NCBI GenBank assembly: GCA_013239625.1
Contig: MU053520.1
Coordinates: 276,934-340,933 of the forward strand
DNA: 64,000 bases
Reading direction: 5' to 3'
DNA from: Lama guanicoe
Lineage: Eukaryota
The stretch's first letter is position 1; each line of letters begins with the position of its first letter. The position numbers and the translations under genes are program-made. Below the pieces are notes generated by a model. That model was not told the DNA's origin and made no database searches. It saw nothing but the letters and a program-made list of their open reading frames with translations. Shown here piece after piece: positions 7,745-55,648 of the stretch.

Positions 7745-7758
7745 CCCATTTATTTATT

Positions 7759-10700
7759 TCTTTTGAACTTTAACATTTTTTATTGAGTATAGTCATTTTA
7801 CAATGTTGTGTCAAATTCCAGTGTAGAGCACAATTTTTCAGCTATACATGAACTTATACATATTCATTGTCACATTTTTTTCTCTGAGCTACCACATGAT
7901 CCTGAATATATTTCCCTGTGCTATACAGTACAATCTTGTTTATCTACTCTGCATTTTTAAATTCCCAGTCTGTTCCTTCCCATATCCCCCCCAGCAACCA
8001 CAAGCTTGTACTCTATGTCTATGGGTCTGTTTCTGTTTTGTATTTATCTTTTTTATTTTATTTTTTAGATTCCACATATGAGTGATCTCATATGGTACTT
8101 TTCTTTCTCTTTCTGGCTTACTTCACTTCGAATGACATTCTCCAGGAGCATCATGTTGCTGCAAATGGCATTATGTTGTCGGGTTTTATGGCTGATAGTA
8201 TTTCATTGTATACATATACCACTTCTTTTTATCCAGTCATCTGTTGATGGACATTCAGGCTGTTTCCATGTCTTGGCTATTGTAAATACTGCTGCTATGA
8301 ATATTGGGGTGCAGGTATCATTTTGAAGTAGGGTTCCTTCTGGATATATGCCCAGGAGTGGGATTCCTGGGTCATATGGTAAGTCTATCCCTAGTCTTTT
8401 GAGGAATCTCCATACTGTTTTCCACAGTGGCTTCCCTTGTTTCCCTCTCCCACTCTTAATGATTTAGATGTCTTCTTTTACAATTTTGTGTTTATTCTTT
8501 TTGTAATTCATGGCAGTTATCACCTTTCCAGTTATGAGTTTCTCATTTTTGTAGCATCCTGCTTCTTTTCTATTTAGAGTAGACCTGTCAATATTTCTTT
8601 TAGCATGGGTTTAGTGTTGCTAAACTCTTTTAGTTTTTGCTTGTCTGTGAAGTTCTTTATCTCTCCTTCTCTTCTAAGGGATAGCCTTGCTGGATAGAGT
8701 ATCCTAGGCTGCATCTTTTTTTTCATTCAAGACTTTGAATATATCTTGCCACTCCCTTCTGGCCTGTAGTGTTTGTGTAGAGAAATCAGCTGAGAGCCTT
8801 ATGGGGGTTCCCTTGTAACTCACTCTTTGTTTTTCTCTTGCTGCCTTTAGGATCATTTCTTTATTCTTGACTCTGGCCATCTTGATGATGATATGTCTGG
8901 GTGTGGGTCTGTTTGGGTTCTTCCTGTGTGGGACCCTCTGAGCCTCCTGTGCTTGGATATCTGATTCTTTTAGGTTTGGGAAGTTTTCAGTCATGATTTC
9001 TTCAAATACCTTTTCAATCCCCTTTGTTCTTTCTTCCCCTTCTGGAATCCCTATTATGTGTAGAATGGCATGCTTTATATTATCCCATAGGTCTCTTATA
9101 TTGTTTTCATTGTTTTCTATTTGTTTTTCTCTCAGCTGTTCTGATTGGGTGCTTTCTGTTGTCCTATCTTCTAGGTCACTTATTCATTCCTCTGCATTAT
9201 CTAGCCTGCTTTGTACAGCCTTTAGGTCAGCTCTCATCTCAGCAAATGAGTTTACTAATTCTACTTAGTTCTTTATAAATTCCATTTCATTTTTGACATA
9301 TTTTATATCTCTAAAAACTATTGCTTTTAGTTCCTTTGGTACTTTGGTCATTCCTTTTTTGAAATCTTGATCTAATAGGCTATCATTGTTTATTTCCTTG
9401 ATCATGCTTTCAGGGGATTTCTCTTGATCTTTTAATTGGGAGTGGTTCCTCTGCTTCTTCATATTGCTCATATCTCTGTGGCACTGTGGCTTAAGGAGTA
9501 TCAGTTATCTAGTTCTCCTGGAGATGGTGTGCTCTTAATGATTTTATTGAGAGGTCTTTGTGTCTTTGCCCTGTTTCATGAACTCAGCTTGCTGTTTCCA
9601 GAGGCCCTCAGTTGGCGCCCTCATCTGTGCTGCTCTCAGTGGCTGTCAGTTAGCAGATCGTGTCCCCTCCAAATGCTGTGTCAAGTGCTGAGCTCTTACC
9701 CGGTGGGTGGGCGGGTCACTCCCCCTCCTGATGCAGCAGTCAGATGCTGCACTTGGGCAAGGCAGATGGGCTGATCTCGCCCCCTCCCAGCACCATGGTC
9801 AAGTGCTGAGTCCTGCCAGGAGGGCAGGTGACTGCCTGCCCTCTCCTGGTGCCAGTCGCTTGGCTGCTCTGTGCAGCTGCCCACTGCACCTTGGGTTGGC
9901 ACCCTGAAGGTGGGCTCAGGGGAAGACCACAGAACTACCCAGCCCCTGCTATGTGCCAAATCTCAGCTCCTTGTTTGTCTTGGAGGCACAAGTTCTCTGA
10001 GGTGCCAGGGTAGAAATATCCTATCTGCTTCAGGCTGTAAACAAGTCTCAGTCCTGCCCAGGAGGTGGTGGAGCCCCTGGATGCAGATTCAGGGCTCGCC
10101 CCCCCCCACTCCTGGGCACTGCACACAGGAGGAGATGGTGGCTGTGGCTGCGCCCCACCTCTCTTCTTGTGAGAAGCCCCAGTAATGAAGGCGCAGGTCT
10201 GAGGAGACAAAGGGTACAGCACCCCTCCCCCCAGGGCACATCAGCCATTTTGCTTTGCTTTTTTCACAATTTATGGTGGACCGAGGTTGTTCTGCTCCAT
10301 ATCTCCTTGCAGTCACATTGTGCAGCACCTTGCAGTCCCCTGGGGCTGCCTCAGTGCAGCCGCCCCAGTCTTCCACCTGGCTCAGGCAGCCTGTACCGGC
10401 CCCAGCTGCTGGCTCACGTCTCAAGCTGGGTGTCATGGGGACTCTTTGTGCCTGTTTAACTCAGTTCTGTTATTCAAGAGGTGCTCAGGGCAGATCTGAG
10501 CCTCAGAGTCTCCCCCTCCATCCCACCAGCCTCTCCATTGGAGAGGGGAGACTCAGCAAATGAGCACCAGTCCTCATTTGCTGTTCCCTGCCCGGGGGAT
10601 TGGTCCCATGCTGCTTTGCTTTTTCTTCTTTCTGTTTTCCTTTTTTACTACCAGATTCTTGACATCTTTGTCTTTTGAAGAGGGTGATGTTCTGTCAGAG

Positions 10701-10812
10701 TTCAGCAGGTGCTCTGGTTAGCTGAGTAGGTCCGTAGATGTGAGTTTTGGTGTATTTGTGGGAGAGGGTGAACTACAAGTGTCCTTCTACTCCACCATCT
10801 TGCTTTTCTCCC
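7759..10812 (-). mobile_element. L1 derivative: full 5'UTR + ORF1 + 3' end, with most of ORF2 missing
   Basis: 5' start GGGAGAAAAGCAAGATGGTGGAG (YY1-like); GC-rich 5'UTR 9472-10812; ORF1 8574-9471; junction at 8431-8432; ORF2 C-terminus and 3'UTR 7759-8430; TSD CCCATTTATTTATT (7745-7758) / CCCATTTACTTATT (10813-10826). Confidence 0.9.
8574..9471 (-). pseudogene. L1 ORF1p, disrupted
   Basis: MSNMKKQRNHSQLKDQEKSPE...ENFPNL...RPTPRHIIIKM...PIRLSADFS...ARREW...YPARLS...LKEILTGLL*; premature stop at 9265-9267 and a frameshift in the A-run near 8720. Confidence 0.9.
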
Positions 10813-13800
10813 CCCATTTACTTATTGATAGGCATTTGTGTTGTTTGCAGTTGGGGGTTATTACAAATTAGGCTGTCATGACATTTTTTGTATGAGTCTT
10901 TATCTAGACTTATATTGTCATTTCTCTTAGATTAGTACTGGTCAAACAGTCAGTATATGTTGACTTTTTAAGAAATTACCAAACCATTTTCCAAAGTTGT
11001 TGTACCAATTTACATTCCTGTCATCTATGTGTGAGAATTTCAATTGCTCTGTATCTTTTTTAACACTTAGTATATTCTTTCTTTATTATGTTATCTATTT
11101 GAATAACTATGCCATGATAGTTTATTGTGTTTTTTTTCCTTGATGGCTAATAGTGTTGAATATTTTATATATATTATGCAACATATTATTTAATTAACAG
11201 TTGTTATAGAAAATAAAATTTAGTTCCATGATCCCCTAGGGATGTATACATTTCCTCTTGATTTATCACATTTACTTTAAACTTAGCATAAACAATAAAA
11301 TTCTAATTTTTATGTATTAAAATAGCATTGTTTGGATTTTATTTAAATGAATGTTACAGTAATGCAGAGATCTTCAGTTCATAATAAAAAATGTTCCAAA
11401 AAGTACTGAGCTATGATGTATTTTAGAAATTACCTTACAATGTGACTTTTCACGGATAGTTCAAAGTTGAAACCTGTGTATTATTTATATATAAACACTT
11501 TGTTATCTAAATCATGGTCTTTGGAATAACAGCATTGAAGTTTCCTGTGAAATATTTGGGGTACAGGAGGTCAGTGCTCTCTCCCTAACTCCAACTACTT
11601 GTACAGATTCTGCAGATTTATAACATTCTCAGAAAAGTAATATCCGTGTTAAAAACTGAGAAGCACTGTGGTCAGTTACTTGATCCTCTCTTCAGAATGT
11701 GAAGAAAGTCATCTCATTTAACTGTTGCTTCCTAAGCTTCAGTGATTAAGGAAAAAACACAACTAAGACTTCAATTCTCTATCCTATGTGGTGGGTGCTT
11801 TTACTTCTTTTCTATGTATTCAGGCAAAGCCAAACACAGAGGTTACTGTGAGCAGTGCATTTTCCATTAATTTTATCCAGAAGCAGCTAGCTTCCCTTGT
11901 CTCAGCCTAACTGAAGCTTCGTACTTACACTTTGATGATTTAGCCATATCACTTACAAACTTTACAACCAGATTCCTCCCCAGAGACCACTTCAAATTCT
12001 AGTTAATTTTATTTCAATTCTGAATCCAAAGTTTTAATATATATTTACTACAGCTGTCCTAGGTCCTCCTTCTCCATGTTCCCACCACCTGTGTGATGTA
12101 GCATGCCACTATTAAACTTTTTTATTAAAATTCCCTTATTTGGGTCTCTGGCTTCATTACCTCATAGTCCTTTATGTTAGTTACACTGCTAAGCAGGGAT
12201 TTCATGTCTACTTCATTCCATATTGCATTACCTCCTTATATATTGTTATTTGTGCTCTATCTTCAAAATTTCTCACCTCTGTCTTGCCCTCTCAGCAACT
12301 CTTGCTAATTTGTGGTATGTTCCTTCTTCCAGGTTATTAACATATAAAACAGAAAAAAAAATGGCCTTATGATTGATCCTTGTGGTTCTCTATTTCCTAG
12401 TTTTCCAACTCCTATGTGGTTTCCACATCTAAATGCTCTTTTATAATCCAATTCTCTTTCTACTTAAGTATGATATAAGAGGGGGTTAAACTCTTAGTTT
12501 TAACTATAAAAGCATGAGGTAACCAGTAATTTTGAGTTGAATGAAGTACAACCCATAAAAGATTTCATTTGGTTATTGTACTGGAGAAGAAGGACATCTA
12601 GCTAACACAGCTGAGAAGGTGGCTGGGATAGGATAAAAAACTGTGAACTGACCTGGCTCTACTACTAGTTCTGAAAAGCTTCCATAAAGCATACCAGAAC
12701 ATTCTAAAATGACCAGAGTAAATCACTACTGAGGAAGTCAGAATGATAGATTAGGTTCCTGTTTTAAAAAAAAATTAGCCCTTATGCTACTATTTCTAAA
12801 CCAATGACCAAGTTTAATCTAGCTAATCACAAAGTTCCATTGGATGCCTTTTACCCTATAGCAAATGGTGCATGTAAGAGCAGTGCTAGCAGGAAACAAC
12901 ATATATGACTCTGCCACCAGAGTAAGCATACAGTGGTGCTGGAGAAAACTCCCAAATTGAGAGAATGCATTATCTAGAATTCAGGGACCAAGCTGAAGTC
13001 AGTTACTGAAGCCAGAAAAATCAGATTTAAAACTTGATTCCAGTTCTTCTTGAAGATCCCCTACTCTACCAATAAACTTCAACATTAGAATTGTTAACTT
13101 AAATAGACTGTCAATTACTTCTCCAGCAACAGAGTTTATGCAAGATCAGCAAAGACTTGAAGTTCAGGGTCTGAAACCATGTGTAAGTCCCCATACAGCA
13201 AAGGAAAGAGAACTTTTTCAGAGAGGGGAAAAGAAAGTTGGGAAGGCTGTAGTAAGGAGAACCCATGACTTTTCATTGGCTGAGTTGTTGCTGATTGTTG
13301 TAAAGCTTCAGCAACTGGAATACTAAAGAAAGGGCAGCACCAGTCAATTACAGTACAAAATTTGCTTCCAGTGGAAATGGATGTTAGAAATGTACGAAGG
13401 TTAGAAACAACAGGGTGTCAAGGGGTAACAGTACAGTTTATGCTCAGAGATCCTGGACAAACCTTCATCCCTGGCCCTTAGTTTTTATCACCATTAAAAT
13501 TAGAGTATTACAAAGATTAGTAAAAGGGGATAATAATGTCTTGGGCTTTGTAATATTCTATTATGGGCTTTATGCCTTAAAGTGCCTCTATTTATAGGAT
13601 ACTGATGAATTCTGAAGACTGGAAGAATATATTTAAATCTTCATAAAGAATGCACTTATTTCCCATTAGAAGGGTGGCAGTTGATTCAGTAGGGACAAAT
13701 AATCATTTTTCCCCCCAGAATCAGTTCTAGAACCATCAGAGATGAAGAAAATAAACTATCTTGAAGGGTCACTTAATTCACCTTGTTGGTTACTTTGATA

Positions 13801-39624: not shown

Positions 39625-42052
39625 GGTTTTTATTTATTTTTTATTCTTAGTTGTTTAGCATTTTTTATTGAGTTACAATCATTTTACAACGTTGTGTCAA
39701 ATTCCAGTGTACAGCACAATTTTTCAGTTATACATGAACATATATATATATTCATCATCACAATTATTTCTCTGTGAGCTACCATAAGAACTTGTTTAAA
39801 TTTCCCTATGCTATACAGTGTAATCTTGTTTATCTGTTCTACATTTTGAAATCCCAGTCTGTCCCTTCCCACCGCCTGCTCCCTTGGAAATCACAAGTTT
39901 GTATTCTATTTCTATTGGTCTGTTTCTGTTTTGTACTTATTTTTTTTTCTTGATTCCACATATGAGCGATCCATATGGTATTTTTCTTTCTCTTTCTGGC
40001 TTACTTCTCTTAGAATGACATTCTCCAGGAGCATCCATGTTGCTACAAATGGCATTATGTTGTCAGTTTTTATGGCTGAATAGTATTCCATTGTATAAAT
40101 GTACTACTTCTTCTTTATCCAGTCATCTGTTGATGGACATTTAGTCTGTTTCCGTGTCTTGGCTACTGTAAATAGTGCTGCTATGAACATTGGGGTGCAG
40201 GCGTCATTTTGAAGTAGGGTCCCTTCTGACCCTTCTGGAGCCCAGGAGCGGGATTCCTGGGTCATATGGTAAGTCTATTTCTAGTCTTTTGAGGAATCTC
40301 CATACTGTTTCCCACAGTGGCTGTACCAACTTTCATTCCTACCAAAAGTGTAGGAGGGTTCCCTTTTCTCCACAGCCTCTCCAGCGTATGTCATTTGTGG
40401 ATTTTTGAATGATGGTCATTCTGACTGGTGTGAGGGGATACCTCATTGTAGTTTTGATTTGCATTTCTCGTGATATTGAGCATTTTTTCATGTGCCTATT
40501 GGTCATTTGTATGTCTTCCTTGGAGAACTGCTTGTTTAGGACTTCTGCCCATTTTGGACTGAGTTGTTTGCTTTTTTCTTATTAAGTCATATGAGCTGCA
40601 TATATATTCTGGAGATCAAGCCTTTGTTGGTTTCATTTGCAAAAATTTTCTCCCATTCCATAGGTTGTGTTTTTGTTTTACTTATGGTTTTCTTTGCTGT
40701 GCAGAAGCTTGTAAGTTTCATTAGGTTCCATTTGTTTATTCTTGCTTTTATTTCTATTGCTTGGGTAGACTGCCCTAGGAGAACATTTTTGAGATGTATG
40801 TCAGATAATGTTTTGCCTATGTTTTCTTCTAGGAGGTTTATTGTATTTTGTCTTATGTTTAAGTTTTTGATCCATTTTGAGTTTATTTTTGTGTATGGTG
40901 TAAGGGAGTGTTCTAGCTTCATTGATTTACATGCTGCTCTCCAATCTAGCTTCATTGCTTTACATGCTGCTGTCCAGTTTTCCCAGCACCATTTGCTGAA
41001 GAGACTGTCTTTATTCCACTGTATATTCTTGCCTCCTTTGTCGAAGATGAGTTGACCAAAAGTTTGTGGGTTCATTTCTGGGCTCTCTATTCTGTTCCAT
41101 TGGTCTATATGTCTGTTTTGGTACCAATACCATGCTGTCTTGATGACTAGCTCTATAGTATTGTCTGAAGTCTGGGGGAGTTATTCCTCCAGCCTCTTTC
41201 TTTTTCTTCAGTAATGCTTTCACAATCCTAGGTCTTTTTTAGTTCCATATAAATTTTATTATGATTTGTTATAGTTCTGTAAAATATGTCCTGGATAATT
41301 TGATAGGAATTTCATTAAATCTGTAGACTTCCTTGGGCAGTGTGACCATTTTAACAATACTGATTCTTCCAATTCAGGAGCATGGGATATCTTTCCATTT
41401 TTTAAAATCTTCTTTAATTTCCTTCATCAGTGGTTTATAGCTCTCCGTGAATAATTCTTTCACCTCCTTGGTTAGATTTATTCCTAGGTATTTTATTACT
41501 TTGGGTGCTATTTTAAAGGGGATTGTTTCTTTATTTTCTTTTCCTGTTGATTCATCATTAGTGTAAAGAAATGCAACTGATTTTTGAACATTAATCTTGT
41601 AACCTGCTACCCTGTTGAATTCTTCAATAAGCTCTAGTAGTTTTTATGTGGACCTTTTAGGGTTTTCTATATATAATAACATGTCATCAGCATATAGTGA
41701 CACTTTTACCTCTTCTTTTCCAATTTGGATCCCTTTTATTTCTCTCTCTTGTGTGATCACTGTGGCTAGGATTTCCAGGACTATGTTGAATAGGAGTGGT
41801 GATAGTGGGCAGCCTTGTCTTGTCCCAGATTTTAGTGGGAAGCTTTTGAGTTTTTCACCATTGAGTACTATGCTGGCTGTAGGGTTTGTCATATATAGCT
41901 TTTATTATGTTGAAATATGTTTCCTCTATATCCACTTTGGTGAGTGTTTTTATCATAAACGAGTGTTGAATTTTATCAAATGCTTTTTCTGCATCTATAG
42001 AGATGACCATGTGGTTTTTGTCCTTTCTGCCTTTCTCTTATTGATGTGATGT
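39625..42052 (-). mobile_element. Young 5'-truncated L1: ORF2 RT and C-terminus plus 3'UTR
   Basis: RT motifs [19 protein letters not shown] and [10 protein letters not shown] (41644-41892); [14 protein letters not shown]...CWENW; frameshifted. Confidence 0.95.
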
Positions 42053-49859: not shown

Positions 49860-52800
49860 GAAGATTCTGGGAAGATGACAAAGTAGAAAATACCAGGAAT
49901 CTGTCTCCCTACCTAGATAACAATAGTACTGTCAGAATCTGTCTGATATAACTATCTTAGAAATCTGGAGTCTGTTGAAAGCTTACAACTTCTAGAGGAA
50001 GGCTTGGACAGTAAATTGCACTTAATTTCAGTCAATTTAAACTCATCACAGTAGCAGCTACCCATATCCTACCTCTTAGCACCATGGGAGTCACCTGTGC
50101 ATGTGTTCCTAGAACAGCTTGCATATAGCTTACATGAACTACGGTAGGCAAAAATGACCCTGTCCTTCAAATACTGAGAATCTGTGCTCTGGTCACTGAT
50201 TGTTACTTCCAATCTAAGAGGCAAAGACTAAGAGATGGGTAATCATTGTTGCACAGTTCTCCACTGCTGCAAGCCCCTCCCTCTCTGGCTAACATGGCAT
50301 CCAAGGAACTTAAAGGGCTGGCATTCTTTTATACCCTTTTTATTTTTCTCTTTTTATAATTTTTGGAAAAATATATTAAAAACTAGAATATTCAAAACCA
50401 ATTATATATACAAAGGAAGTTGGAAATTCATTGCACATGCACAGGAAAAGTCATGTGTTCAGAAAACTCATGAGAAGACCTTAGGTTTACAGCTCAGGCT
50501 GATCCTTGGCACGGAGACAGTCTACAACAACAACAGAAAAAATTTGGAAAAAAAAATAGTGAAGCCTAGGGAAGGGAAAGAATTTGATTTCTAGAGTTAC
50601 TACATTATTGGATTCAAAGTCCAGTTTTCAAAAAACATTACAGGAATACAAAGAAATAGGAAGTGTGACCATTCAAAGCAAAATTATAAACTAACAAAAA
50701 CTGTTTTTGAAAAACACTTGATGGTAGGTAAAGACTTTTAAAACATCTCTCTTAATGTTGTTTACAGAACTAAGGGAAGATGTGGAGAAAGTAAAAAAAC
50801 AGTATGAACAAAATATAAATATCAATAAAGAGATATAAAACCTAAAATAAACCAAAGAAAAAAATTATAGAGCTGAAATATACAGTGACTGATATAAAAA
50901 AATTTACCAGACCTACTCCAAGACAGATTTCAGCAAGAAAGGTAAAGAATCAATGAAATTAAAGACAGGACATTGGAAATAATGAAGTCTGAGATACAAA
51001 AAGAATAAGATTGAGGAAAAGTGAACAAAATCTAAGGGACTTGTGAGAGATCATCAAATGGACAAACATATGCATTGTGGGAGTCCCAGAAGAAATGAGA
51101 GCAAAAGGGACAGAGAGGATATTTAAAGATATAATGTCTGATAACCTCCCAAATTTGATGAAAACATGATTATAAACATCCAAAAAGTTCAACAAATTCC
51201 AATTAAGATGAACTTGAAGAGATCCACACTGAAACACATTATGATTAAACATTCAAAGGACAAAGACAAAGAAAAAATTTCTAAAGCACTAAGAGAAAAG
51301 TGACTCATCACATACACATGATTATCAATATTATGAGCCAATTTCTTATTAAAAACTTTGGAGGTCAGAAAGCCAAAGTATACAAAGTGATATAAGAACA
51401 AAAATCCCAGCAATTAAGAATCTTATATCTGGCAAAATTGTTCTTCAAAAGTGAGGGGGAAATTAAGACATTCCCAGATCACTAAGGGAATTCATTGCCA
51501 TTAGATTTGCCCTGCAAGAAATGCTAAGGGAAAATGCAGAAGCAGGTTAAAATAAAGGAACACTAGATATTAACTTGAAGTCATATGAATAAAGATTCCA
51601 GTAAAGGTAAATATATGGGCAAGTATGAAGCTAACTGTATTGCAACAATGGTTTATAAATCCATATTTTATTTTCTACATGATTAAAGAGTCTAATATAT
51701 TTTTTAATTATCAATTTAAATGGTATTGTTATTGTAACTTTGGTTTGTAACTCTACATTTTGTTTTCTACATATTTTATGAGACTAATACATTTAAAAGA
51801 ATTATTGGCCTATATTTTGGGCCACAATGTATAAAAATGTCATTTTGTGACATTTTACCTGAAAAGGATGGGATAGAACTGTAAAGGAGCAGACTTTGTG
51901 TATGTTTTTGAACTTAAGCTCTAATAATTCATTTCAGAGTATTATAACTTTAAAAGGTTAAATGTAATCCTCATGGTACCTAAAATGAAAAGTGAAAACT
52001 GCTACAGAACATACACAAAAGAAAATGAGAAAGAATTGTAAACATTTCACTCCAAAGGATCAAAAGAAGACAGTAATGCAGGAAATGAGAGACCTAAGAA
52101 AAACTGTAAGACATATGGAAAACAAATATCAAAATGAGAGAAATAAGTCCCTCCTTGTCAGTAAGATTAGTAGAATGGATTAAAAAAATACATGATTCAA
52201 CTATATGTAATCTACAAGAGATTCAAAGACACAAAGAGGTTGAAAGTGGAAGGATGAAAAAAATTCTATGCAAATAGTAAACAAAAGAAAGCATAGATGG
52301 CTACACTAATATCAGACAAATGAACTAAATTAGAAAAGGTCATACAAGACAAAGAAGGATATTATGTATTAATCAAGGTACGATAATATAGCAAGAAGAT
52401 ACAACATTTATAAACATCTAAACCCCTATTGAGATTACCAAAATATATAAAGCAAAAACTGATAGAATTAAAGTGAGACATAGAAAGTTGTATTAAAAAA
52501 AAATTTGGTGATTTCAATACACTACTCTCAATAATAGATAGAACAACCGGGCAGGAGATAAGTAAGGAGATAGAGAACTTAAACAACACAATAAACCAAC
52601 TAAATCTTAGAGTCTTATGCAGAACATTCTACTCAATAACAAAAAAAATATACATTCTTCCCAAGTACACACAGGACATTTTTCAAAATAGGCCATATGT
52701 TAGCTCACAAATTAAGTTTCAATAGATTTTAAAAGATGGATATCATACAAGACACTTTCTCTGACCACAATGAGATAAAGTAAGGAATCAATAATACGAA

Positions 52801-55648
52801 TACGACTAGAAAATTCACAATTTTTTATACTTACACAACTAACAGATCATAGAAAAAATTACAAAGGTTATTAGAAAATAAAGACCAGTGAAAATGAAAG
52901 CACAGCATAACAAAATTTATGAAATACAGTGAAAGCAGTACTAAGAGGGGAATTTGTAGCAATAAATGTTTACATTAAAAACTAGAACAATTGCAAATCA
53001 ATGACCTAAACTTAATGACTTAAGGAACTAGAAAAGAAGATGATTGGAACAGAAATCAGAAATCTCAAATCTCCTGACAAAGTCTTGGATCTGACGACTT
53101 CAATAGTGAATTTTACCAACCATTTATAAAAGAACTGACACAACCCTTATCAAAATTTTCCCAAAAATGAAAGAGAAAAAACATTTCCTAACTTATTCTT
53201 TGAAGGTATTATCCTGAAATCAAAGCCAGACAAAGATATTATAGGGAAAGAACACTACAGATCAATGTTCCTTGTGAATACTGATGTAAAAATCCTCAAG
53301 ATACTAGCAAATTTATTTAAGATGATTAAAATGATTATAAAACATATTAAAATATTGCATATTAAAAGGATTATATTAAACTTTAAAAGGATTGCATAAA
53401 GGACTATAAAACATAGCAAACTGATTTTTTTTTCTGAAATGCAGGACTGTTCAACATATGAGAAATGACCAATGTAATATACTACATTAATAGAATAAAA
53501 GAAGAAAAAAATGATAATCTCAACTGATGCAAAAAAAATGTTTTTAACAAAATTCAATATTTGTTTTTCATGGCTGGCTTCAAAACTCAACAAAGTAGGA
53601 ACAGAACAAAACTGTCTCAATATAATAAAATTCATATACGTAAAACCTTCAGTGAACATTATATTCAGTGGTGAAAGATAAAGTTTTCCCTCTAAGGTCA
53701 AGAACAAGGAAAGGATGACTGACTTTGTTACTTGTATTCAACATAGTATTTGAGTTCTAACCATAGCATTTTGGTAAGAAAAATAAATTAAAATCAACCA
53801 AATTGGAAGAGAAGAAGTAAAATGATTTCTGTTTGCAGATGATATAAGTAGGACACCCTAAATATTACACACACACAGAAAAATTATTAGAACTAATAAG
53901 TTAATTCAGCAAAGTAGCAAGATAAAAAGTCAATACACAAAAATTCATGGCATTTTGATATATTAACAATGAAGAGTTCAAAAAAAGAAATTAAGAAAAA
54001 ATTTTATTTACAGTAGCATGAAAAATGAATAAAATACTTAGGAAATAACTTTACCAAGAAAATGAAAGACTTGTGCAGTAAAAAACTACAAAACATTGCT
54101 GAAATTTTAGAAGATGTAAAAATGGACACATATTCCATGTGCATAGATTGGAGGAATTAATGCTGTCAATACTACACAAAGTGATCTAGGATTCAATGCA
54201 ATCCACATCAAAATCTCAATATATTTTAAAGAAATAAGAATTTTTTTCTGAAATACATATGGGATCTCAGGGGACCTCAAATAGACCAAAAGAATAGAAA
54301 AGAGAACCCAGAAATAAGCCTTAACTTACATGGTCACATGATTTTTGACAAGGAAGCCAAGGCCATTCAATGGATAAAGGACAATCTTTTCAACAAATGG
54401 TGCTGAAAAACCTGGACATCCACTTGCAGATGAGTAAACTTGGATCCCTCCTATACCATATACAAAAAATTAACTAAAAATGGATCAAAATTCTAAGTAT
54501 GAGACTTAAAACTGAAAAACTCTTAGAGAAAAATATAGGACATAAGTTCACAACATCATTTGGCAAAAGTTTCTTGAGTGTGGCACGATGAGCACCAACA
54601 ATGAAAGAAAACAATTTGAACTTTTGAAAATTAAAAACAAAAATTGTCCATCAAAGGACATTATCACTATTCAACAGAATGTCAAGTCAACCTACAATAT
54701 GAGATAAAAGACTTGCAAGCCATATATCTGGCAAAGGATTAGTATCCAAAATATATAAGCAACTACTAAAACTCAACAACAAATAAATACAGAGCCCCCT
54801 ACAAAAATGGGCAAAAGTCTTGAATGGCTATTTCTCCAAAGAAGATATACATTTGGCCAATAAGCACATGAAAAGATGCTCAACATCACTAAACATTAAG
54901 GAAATACAAGTCAAAACTACGATGAGATACTACCTCAAACCAATTAGGATGGCTACTATTAAAAAAAAAAAGGCAGAAAATACCAAGTGTTGGTGAGGAT
55001 ATGAAGAAATTGAAACATTTGTGTTATAATGTTAAGAATGTAAAATGATATACTCATTGTGGGAAATAGTACGGCAGTTCCTAAGAAAATTAAAATAGAA
55101 TTACCTTATGATTCAGTAATTCAATTTATGATTATATACTCAAAAGATTTGAAAATACAGACTCTGAGAGATATTTGTACACCCATGTTTATTGCAGCAT
55201 TATTCACCATAGCTAAATGTGGAGGCAACCTAAGTGTCTATCAGACAAAGGATGAATGAATAAGCAAAATATGGTAAAGGCATGCAGTGAAGTATTACTT
55301 AGTCTTACAAAGAAGTTTTGTCACATGCTACAACATGGTTGAATCTTGAGGATATTATGCTAAGTGAAATAAACCAGTTACAAAAAGACAATTACTGTAT
55401 GATTCCACTTAAAAGAGATACTTAGAGTAGCCAAAATCATGCAAAGTAGAATGGTGGTTACCAGAGGCTGGAAGGAAAGGAAGAATGAGAATGGGTAGAG
55501 TTTCAGTTTTATAAGATAAAAAGAGTTCTGAAGATGTATGGTAAAATTGGTATTATGACATTGTTAATGCTTTTAACACCACTGACTCTATGCTAAAATG
55601 GTTAAGATGGTAAAAATTTTTACATATTTTACCATAATTAAATTTAAA
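49860..55648 (+). mobile_element. Ancient near-full-length L1 (L1MB-like) with degenerate TSD
   Basis: 5' start 'gattctgggaagatgacaaagtag'; ORF1 remnants ~50650-51550; EN, RT and C-terminal ORF2 remnants ~52170-55410; TSD AAAAACTCCAGGGTTATT (49842-49859) / AAAACCTCCAAGTTTATT (55649-55666). Confidence 0.85.

What the first reader, a model, noticed from the sequence alone, without database searches (positions are those of the whole stretch)
7745..10826. ORF1-only 'half-L1' whose ORF2 was removed at an apparent splice junction
Seen: a single TSD-bounded insertion of ~3.05 kb with both native L1 termini, a ~1.3-kb 5'UTR, ORF1 and ~140 nt of inter-ORF spacer. It then jumps to the last ~120 codons of ORF2, losing the EN, RT and zinc-knuckle domains. 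In L1 sense the junction reads ...AACAAGGGAAG|CCACTGTGG. The intact copy at 40311-40330 reads ...TTGGTACAG|CCACTGTGG, so the downstream break is exactly after a CAG and the upstream side ends in the exon-consensus AAG. Known: spliced L1 RNAs can retrotranspose, and ORF1-only HAL1 families have arisen repeatedly in mammals. Inference: an L1 mRNA with ORF2 spliced out, mobilised in trans, and possibly a member of a non-autonomous camelid family.
Basis: partly seen in the sequence, partly recalled or inferred. Interest (0 to 1): 0.7.

Follow-up and report, generated by a model that had tools for sequence, protein, structure and literature searches.

The report
Dead camelid L1 missing its ORF2
This is a real but decayed LINE-1 jumping-gene copy that kept its promoter region, first gene and tail but lost the gene for its copying enzyme; the splice-like look of the join is probably chance, and I could not show that it belongs to a family.

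Summary
The anatomy is confirmed. One minus-strand camelid L1 insertion (7759-10812) has a 14-bp TSD with one mismatch, a 1.34-kb 5'UTR, a broken ORF1 and 143 nt of spacer. It then jumps (8431|8430) to the last 121 ORF2 codons and the 3'UTR. Removing it re-forms an older L1 ORF2 end, so it is a single insertion.

The splice reading is weaker than it looks. The junction AG could come from the ORF2 side, and about 4-5% of random joins give the same look. The acceptor has a poor pyrimidine tract. In aligned pig-type L1 spacers no GT follows the ungapped position (0 of 26 consensus hits shown, 0 of 6 loci); one pig type has AG|GT two bases away. No camelid parent L1 DNA, genome or read mapping was available, so GT and copy number are untested; searches for a second junction copy were blank but weak.

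Best reading: an old dead L1 with a non-splice internal loss of about 3.7 kb. Odds: one-off non-splice 0.5, HAL1-type family with a non-splice junction 0.3, splice origin 0.15. Ordinary unless the junction recurs.

The parts
10813..10826 (-). 5' target-site duplication copy (14 bp; target site a degenerate variant of the L1 endonuclease site)
   Evidence: empty site re-forms an older L1 ORF2 end
9472..10812 (-). L1 5'UTR, 55% GC, CpG-depleted (15 observed, 101 expected); starts at the native 5' end
   Evidence: short match to 5' ends of pig-type L1 loci at 10771-10745; similar start in pig consensuses
8574..9471 (-). ORF1, decayed: 2 premature stops, 1 frameshift, 2 single-codon gaps
   Evidence: Pfam Transposase_22 and Tnp_22_dsRBD; 82-86% to intact 300-aa P0122
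8431..8573 (-). First 143 nt of the inter-ORF spacer, homologous to pig-type L1 spacers up to the break
   Evidence: 25-27 of the last 40 nt identical, ungapped
8430..8432 (-). Junction; the AG at 8432-8431 can be assigned to either side
8065..8430 (-). Last 121 codons plus stop of ORF2, starting just after the CCHC knuckle; decayed
7759..8064 (-). L1 3'UTR, AATAAA at 7784-7779 and decayed A-rich tail
   Evidence: 85% to the copy at 39654-40320 over the whole 3' segment
7745..7758 (-). 3' target-site duplication copy
10805..11134 (-). Older L1 ORF2 C-terminal fragment that served as the insertion target; continues on the other side of the element

Best explanation
A full-length camelid L1 inserted by target-primed reverse transcription into an older L1 (shown: TSD, both ends, re-formed empty site). 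About 3.7 kb, from inside the spacer to just after the ORF2 zinc knuckle, was lost by a non-splice join at 0-2 nt of microhomology, either by a jump of the reverse transcriptase during insertion or by a later genomic deletion (inferred; size taken from pig L1 geometry). The copy then decayed neutrally (shown: broken ORF1, CpG loss) and is dead. It is most likely a one-off.
For: Both halves are of similar age and lineage (ORF1 82-86% aa to P0122; 3' part 85% nt to a neighbouring camelid copy). A splice-like look appears in 4.2-5.0% of 300000 random joins per run. No GT at the ungapped +1/+2 in 0 of 26 pig consensus spacer hits shown or 0 of 6 pig-type loci; in 18 of the 26 the base under the junction G region is part of an AAAT-type run, which fits the G coming from ORF2. 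Acceptor pyrimidine count is at or below the median of the 85 YAG sites in that ORF2 copy. A break within 0.7 kb of the 3' end is where L1 reverse transcription often stops (median 5' breakpoint 5.52 kb in tumours, passages). An ORF2-less RNA needs ORF2p in trans, against cis-preference.
Against: The break does fall at a CAG and removes ORF2 almost exactly while sparing ORF1, promoter and 3' end, which is the HAL1 design. If both AG sides are real, only 0.24% of random joins look like this. 8 of the 26 pig hits and locus L003 have AG|GTAAAT two bases from the projected point, so a donor can arise here. A member of a large family is more likely to be met in a random window than a one-off. The camelid parent was never seen.
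Confidence: 0.5

Rival explanations
1. One decayed member of a camelid HAL1-type family whose founder lost ORF2 by a non-splice deletion. The founder kept its promoter, made ORF1p in cis and borrowed ORF2p from full L1s.
For: Architecture matches HAL1. HAL1 families arose several times, including in pig and rat. Sampling favours multi-copy families.
Against: No second junction copy: 0 of the 120 listed proteins read spacer-then-ORF2 (only 3 were camelid-like, so weak); blank or chance-only results; no look-alike windows. HAL1 does not occur in the main text of the camelid TE survey, and Vpa-name searches gave only L1-2_Vpa. All are low-power negatives.
Confidence: 0.3
2. Retrocopy of an L1 mRNA spliced from a spacer donor to the ORF2 CAG acceptor, mobilised in trans, either once, recurrently (SpIRE-like) or as founder of a HAL1 family.
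For: Break compatible with CAG| and with an AAG exon end. Spliced L1 RNAs do retrotranspose (PMC5860796). One pig spacer type carries AG|GTAAAT two bases off, and most others carry a GTAAG donor-like core 10 nt upstream, so this spacer region is donor-prone.
Against: The conserved pig GTAAG core reads ACAAG in this copy and is not the break. Ungapped homologues give no GT. Weak acceptor. Chance look 4-5%. The SpIREs described in the passages read remove 5'UTR or 5'UTR/ORF1 sequence and keep ORF2.
Confidence: 0.15
3. Two separate L1 insertions fused by a deletion between them, or an assembly collapse.
For: Head and tail are both ordinary L1 parts.
Against: One TSD spans both ends and the flanks re-form one older L1 across the empty site.
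Confidence: 0.05

Closest known systems
HAL1 (half-L1) non-autonomous L1 derivatives, e.g. rat RNHAL1 and pig HAL1_SSc (Bao & Jurka 2010 not held; seen through passages of PMC5753468, PMC2241872, PMC4859970 and supplement 1 of PMC6501411)
   Same: L1 5'UTR plus ORF1, no functional ORF2, about 3 kb, A-rich end; pig HAL1_SSc is 3016 bp with part of its spacer retained.
   Different: HAL1s are multi-copy families; recurrence is not shown here. By eye, pig HAL1_SSc continues into an AT-rich 3' half with no ORF2 C-terminal remnant and has an L1A-type ORF1, so it is not the same element. This copy keeps 121 ORF2 codons and the native 3'UTR.
SpIREs (Larson et al. 2018, PMC5860796; passages and Discussion part 1 read)
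   Same: TSD-bounded L1 with an internal loss that ends at an AG.
   Different: SpIREs have a proven GT donor, recur at many loci, lose 5'UTR or 5'UTR/ORF1 and keep ORF2. Here the promoter and ORF1 are kept, ORF2 is lost, and the donor is unproven.
Ordinary internally deleted L1 copies (mentioned in PMC4982230 and as a class in PMC2912911, passages)
   Same: Single insertion, both ends native, short microhomology at the join, neutral decay.
   Different: The deletion here happens to spare ORF1 and to end at a CAG. The internal deletions counted in 10.1101/2024.08.27.596794 are short and tied to inversions, unlike this one.

Membership tests
HAL1 | Derived from L1; encodes ORF1 but no functional ORF2 | tested here: met
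   ORF1 is decayed in this copy
HAL1 | Inserted as the shortened unit (deletion older than the insertion) | tested here: inconclusive
   TSD bounds the unit but would also survive a later deletion; no orthologous locus could be read
HAL1 | Many dispersed copies with the same junction and different TSDs | tested here: inconclusive
   No second copy; no genome held; little camelid sequence in the collections
HAL1 | ORF1 under purifying selection across copies | not testable with these tools
   Only one copy in hand
SpIRE | Downstream break directly after an acceptor AG | tested here: met
   CAG in the copies at 40321 and 59977; placement ambiguous by 2 nt and pyrimidine tract poor
SpIRE | GT donor directly after the upstream break in the parent | tested here: inconclusive
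   Camelid parent not obtained; pig-type homologues give no GT ungapped (0 of 26 hits shown, 0 of 6 loci), one type has GT 2 nt off
SpIRE | Same junction in independent insertions | tested here: inconclusive
   As for HAL1 recurrence
SpIRE | Loss of 5'UTR or 5'UTR/ORF1 sequence with ORF2 retained (as described in PMC5860796) | tested here: not met
   5'UTR and ORF1 are full length, ORF2 is lost
L1 TPRT insertion | TSD, A-rich 3' end, endonuclease-like target | tested here: met
   tail decayed, target site degenerate

The most novel reading that the evidence does not exclude
A camelid HAL1 family founded by one splice from a spacer donor to an acceptor just after the ORF2 zinc knuckle. Unlike known SpIREs it would keep promoter and ORF1 and so go on amplifying, giving a splicing route to HAL1. 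The join is also in frame with a spacer ATG 27 codons upstream (8511; one stop lies between in this copy), so the source might have made a ~150-aa ORF2 C-terminal peptide.
Probability: 0.07. Interest if true: 0.6.

Novelty: new member of a known kind. Interest (0 to 1): 0.2.

Why it matters
As a one-off deleted L1 it matters little. If the junction recurs it is an apparently unnamed camelid HAL1 family, useful for repeat libraries. If the parent also has GT there, it would show that L1 splicing can found an amplifying parasite rather than a dead end. One BLAST of a camelid assembly decides both points.

Tried and rejected
Own genome: none held. Mapping of contigs or reads across the junction could not be obtained, which leaves copy number and the parent sequence open. 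Protein searches: junction frame, 5630 hits, best 120 read, none with a spacer-type N-terminus (46-149 aa only, and a predicted ~149-aa product sits at that limit); antisense junction frame, no candidate and one unrelated repeat protein; ORF1 against longer proteins gave one camelid-type ORF1p, P0122, and none of 120 with the ORF2 C-terminal motif. Locus searches: viral blank or unrelated; genome contigs gave 2 short non-camelid pieces, then blanks; metagenomes gave 10 loci, none camelid, 6 useful as pig-type spacers. DNA patterns: 6 and 1 prokaryote records, taken as chance matches and not read further, and 0 viral. Plasmids and phages blank. The older L1 at 51000-55400 has a different spacer by eye. 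A 7-nt word shared by the spacer end and ORF2 about 40 nt above the break suggested a two-step event, but 88 of 2347 ORF2 positions do the same: rejected as chance. Papers not held: Bao & Jurka 2010, Belancio 2006. Supplements of the camelid TE survey PMC8605555 could not be read and may hold a consensus. Repbase and Dfam were not available. No splice-site scoring model was available, so acceptor strength is a pyrimidine count only.

Full report
Observation. The stretch 7745-10826 is a minus-strand L1. A 14-bp duplication with one mismatch bounds it; 45 of 20000 shuffles of the two flank regions give a match that good. Cutting the element out and keeping one copy of the duplication lets a camelid-type ORF2 C-terminal protein align across the join (residues 21-150), whereas in the filled site the alignment stops at residue 134. 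So one insertion landed inside an older L1. The parts measure 1341 (5'UTR), 898 (ORF1), 143 (spacer), 366 (ORF2 end) and 306 nt (3'UTR and tail). The host is a camelid by the best named protein hits, Camelus dromedarius at 85-87%.

State of the copy. ORF1 matches the Pfam L1 ORF1 domains and the intact 300-aa P0122 at 82-86%, with two stops, a frameshift and two codon gaps. Identity is 70-78% in the first 150 residues and 86-94% after, as expected for an older subfamily with a drifted coiled coil plus neutral decay (inference). The 5'UTR has 15 CpG against 101 expected. The copy is dead and old. Fourteen DNA runs under five organism labels hold 0.52-0.60 of its sampled words, which suggests a shared locus but does not test the junction.

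The junction. It reads AAGGGAAG|CCACTG at 8431|8430. The two nearer L1 copies in the window that cross this point have CAG before the homologous base. The break lies four residues after the CCHC knuckle. With both taken as real, 0.24% of random joins match. When the AG may come from the ORF2 side, which cannot be excluded without the parent, 4.2-5.0% match (three runs of 300000 joins). The acceptor has 4 and 7 pyrimidines in 17 positions in the two copies; the 85 YAG sites of that ORF2 copy centre on 7-8. The AG is simply a Gln codon end and reads AA in several pig consensuses.

The donor. No camelid parent DNA could be found. The nearest stand-ins are pig-type L1s, whose spacer aligns to the copy up to the break (25-27 of the last 40 nt). 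Ungapped, none has GT after the break: 0 of 6 loci and 0 of the 26 spacer hits shown from supplement 1 of PMC6501411 (7 of 10 hits for one term, the other 3 not in spacers, and the first 19 of 31 for another; family headers were not shown). Eighteen of the 26 run AAAT at that point, which fits the final G coming from ORF2. Against my reading, 8 of the 26 and L003 have AG|GTAAAT two bases upstream, and most of the rest have a GTAAG core ten bases upstream, where this copy reads ACAAG. The region is donor-prone, and about a third of these 40 bases differ between pig and camel, so this lowers the splice model without refuting it.

Recurrence. Every search for a second junction copy was blank, but the collections hold very little camelid sequence: 3 of the 120 listed ORF2-end proteins and 1 of the 120 ORF1 proteins looked camelid. 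No genome was held and no read mapping was obtained. Family status is open. I give it about 0.35-0.4 in all, because HAL1 families are common in mammals and a family member is more likely to be met than a one-off.

Mechanism. Shown: TPRT insertion of an L1 with both native ends, loss of nearly all ORF2, neutral decay. Inferred: loss of about 3.7 kb (from pig spacer and ORF2 lengths) by a reverse-transcriptase jump or a later deletion at 0-2 nt of microhomology. A spliced ORF2-less RNA would need both a rare splice and ORF2p in trans (cis-preference), which sets a low prior. My odds are judgement, not computed: one-off non-splice 0.5, non-splice HAL1 family 0.3, splice origin 0.15 (about half of that as a family), fusion or artefact 0.05.

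Comparison. It is built like HAL1 but is not shown to be a member, since recurrence is untested. It is not pig HAL1_SSc, whose 3' half shows no ORF2 remnant by eye. It fails one SpIRE feature as described in PMC5860796 and is inconclusive on the donor. Ten paper searches listed no camelid HAL1 and no spacer-to-ORF2 splice; Repbase, Dfam and Bao & Jurka 2010 were not seen. Papers seen: passages of PMC5203782, PMC5753468, PMC6726744, PMC8605555, PMC13756887, PMC2241872, PMC4859970, PMC4982230, PMC2896524, PMC2912911 and 10.1101/2024.08.27.596794; passages and Discussion part 1 of PMC5860796; passages, supplement 1 part 1 and supplement searches of PMC6501411; outline only of 10.1101/2025.02.02.635956.

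Verdict. A real ORF1-retaining, ORF2-deleted camelid L1, most likely ordinary. Interest 0.2. It would merit about 0.6 if both the GT and the recurrence are found.

Noticed in passing
window 8511-8431 (-): A spacer ATG at 8511 is in frame with the ORF2 remnant across the junction (27 codons, one stop at 8466-8464 where pig-type spacers have a sense codon). Frame agreement has a 1-in-3 chance.
   Followed up: partly
loci L003, L008-L012; PMC6501411 supplement 1: Pig-type L1 spacers carry a conserved GTAAG donor-like core at the position 10 nt above this junction, and one type has gained AG|GTAAAT; pig L1s might splice from the spacer.
   Followed up: no
P0004 (UniRef A0A8C3H5B0): A protein labelled painted turtle is 89% identical to this camelid ORF2 end and reads like the camel proteins; probably contamination or mislabelling.
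   Followed up: no
P0122 and P0241: Unnamed NCBI contigs of 3831 and 1472 bp encode an intact camelid-type ORF1p and an ORF2 C-terminus; the 3.8-kb contig would probably show the parent spacer.
   Followed up: partly
window 40912-40976: 33-bp tandem duplication inside ORF2 of the 5'-truncated camelid L1 at 39632-42028.
   Followed up: no
L001, L002: Short mammalian L1 ORF1 contigs in Streptococcus mitis and Nocardia assemblies: host contamination.
   Followed up: no
window 51000-55400 (+): An older, long L1 remnant with ORF1, a roughly 600-nt spacer of another type and ORF2.
   Followed up: partly
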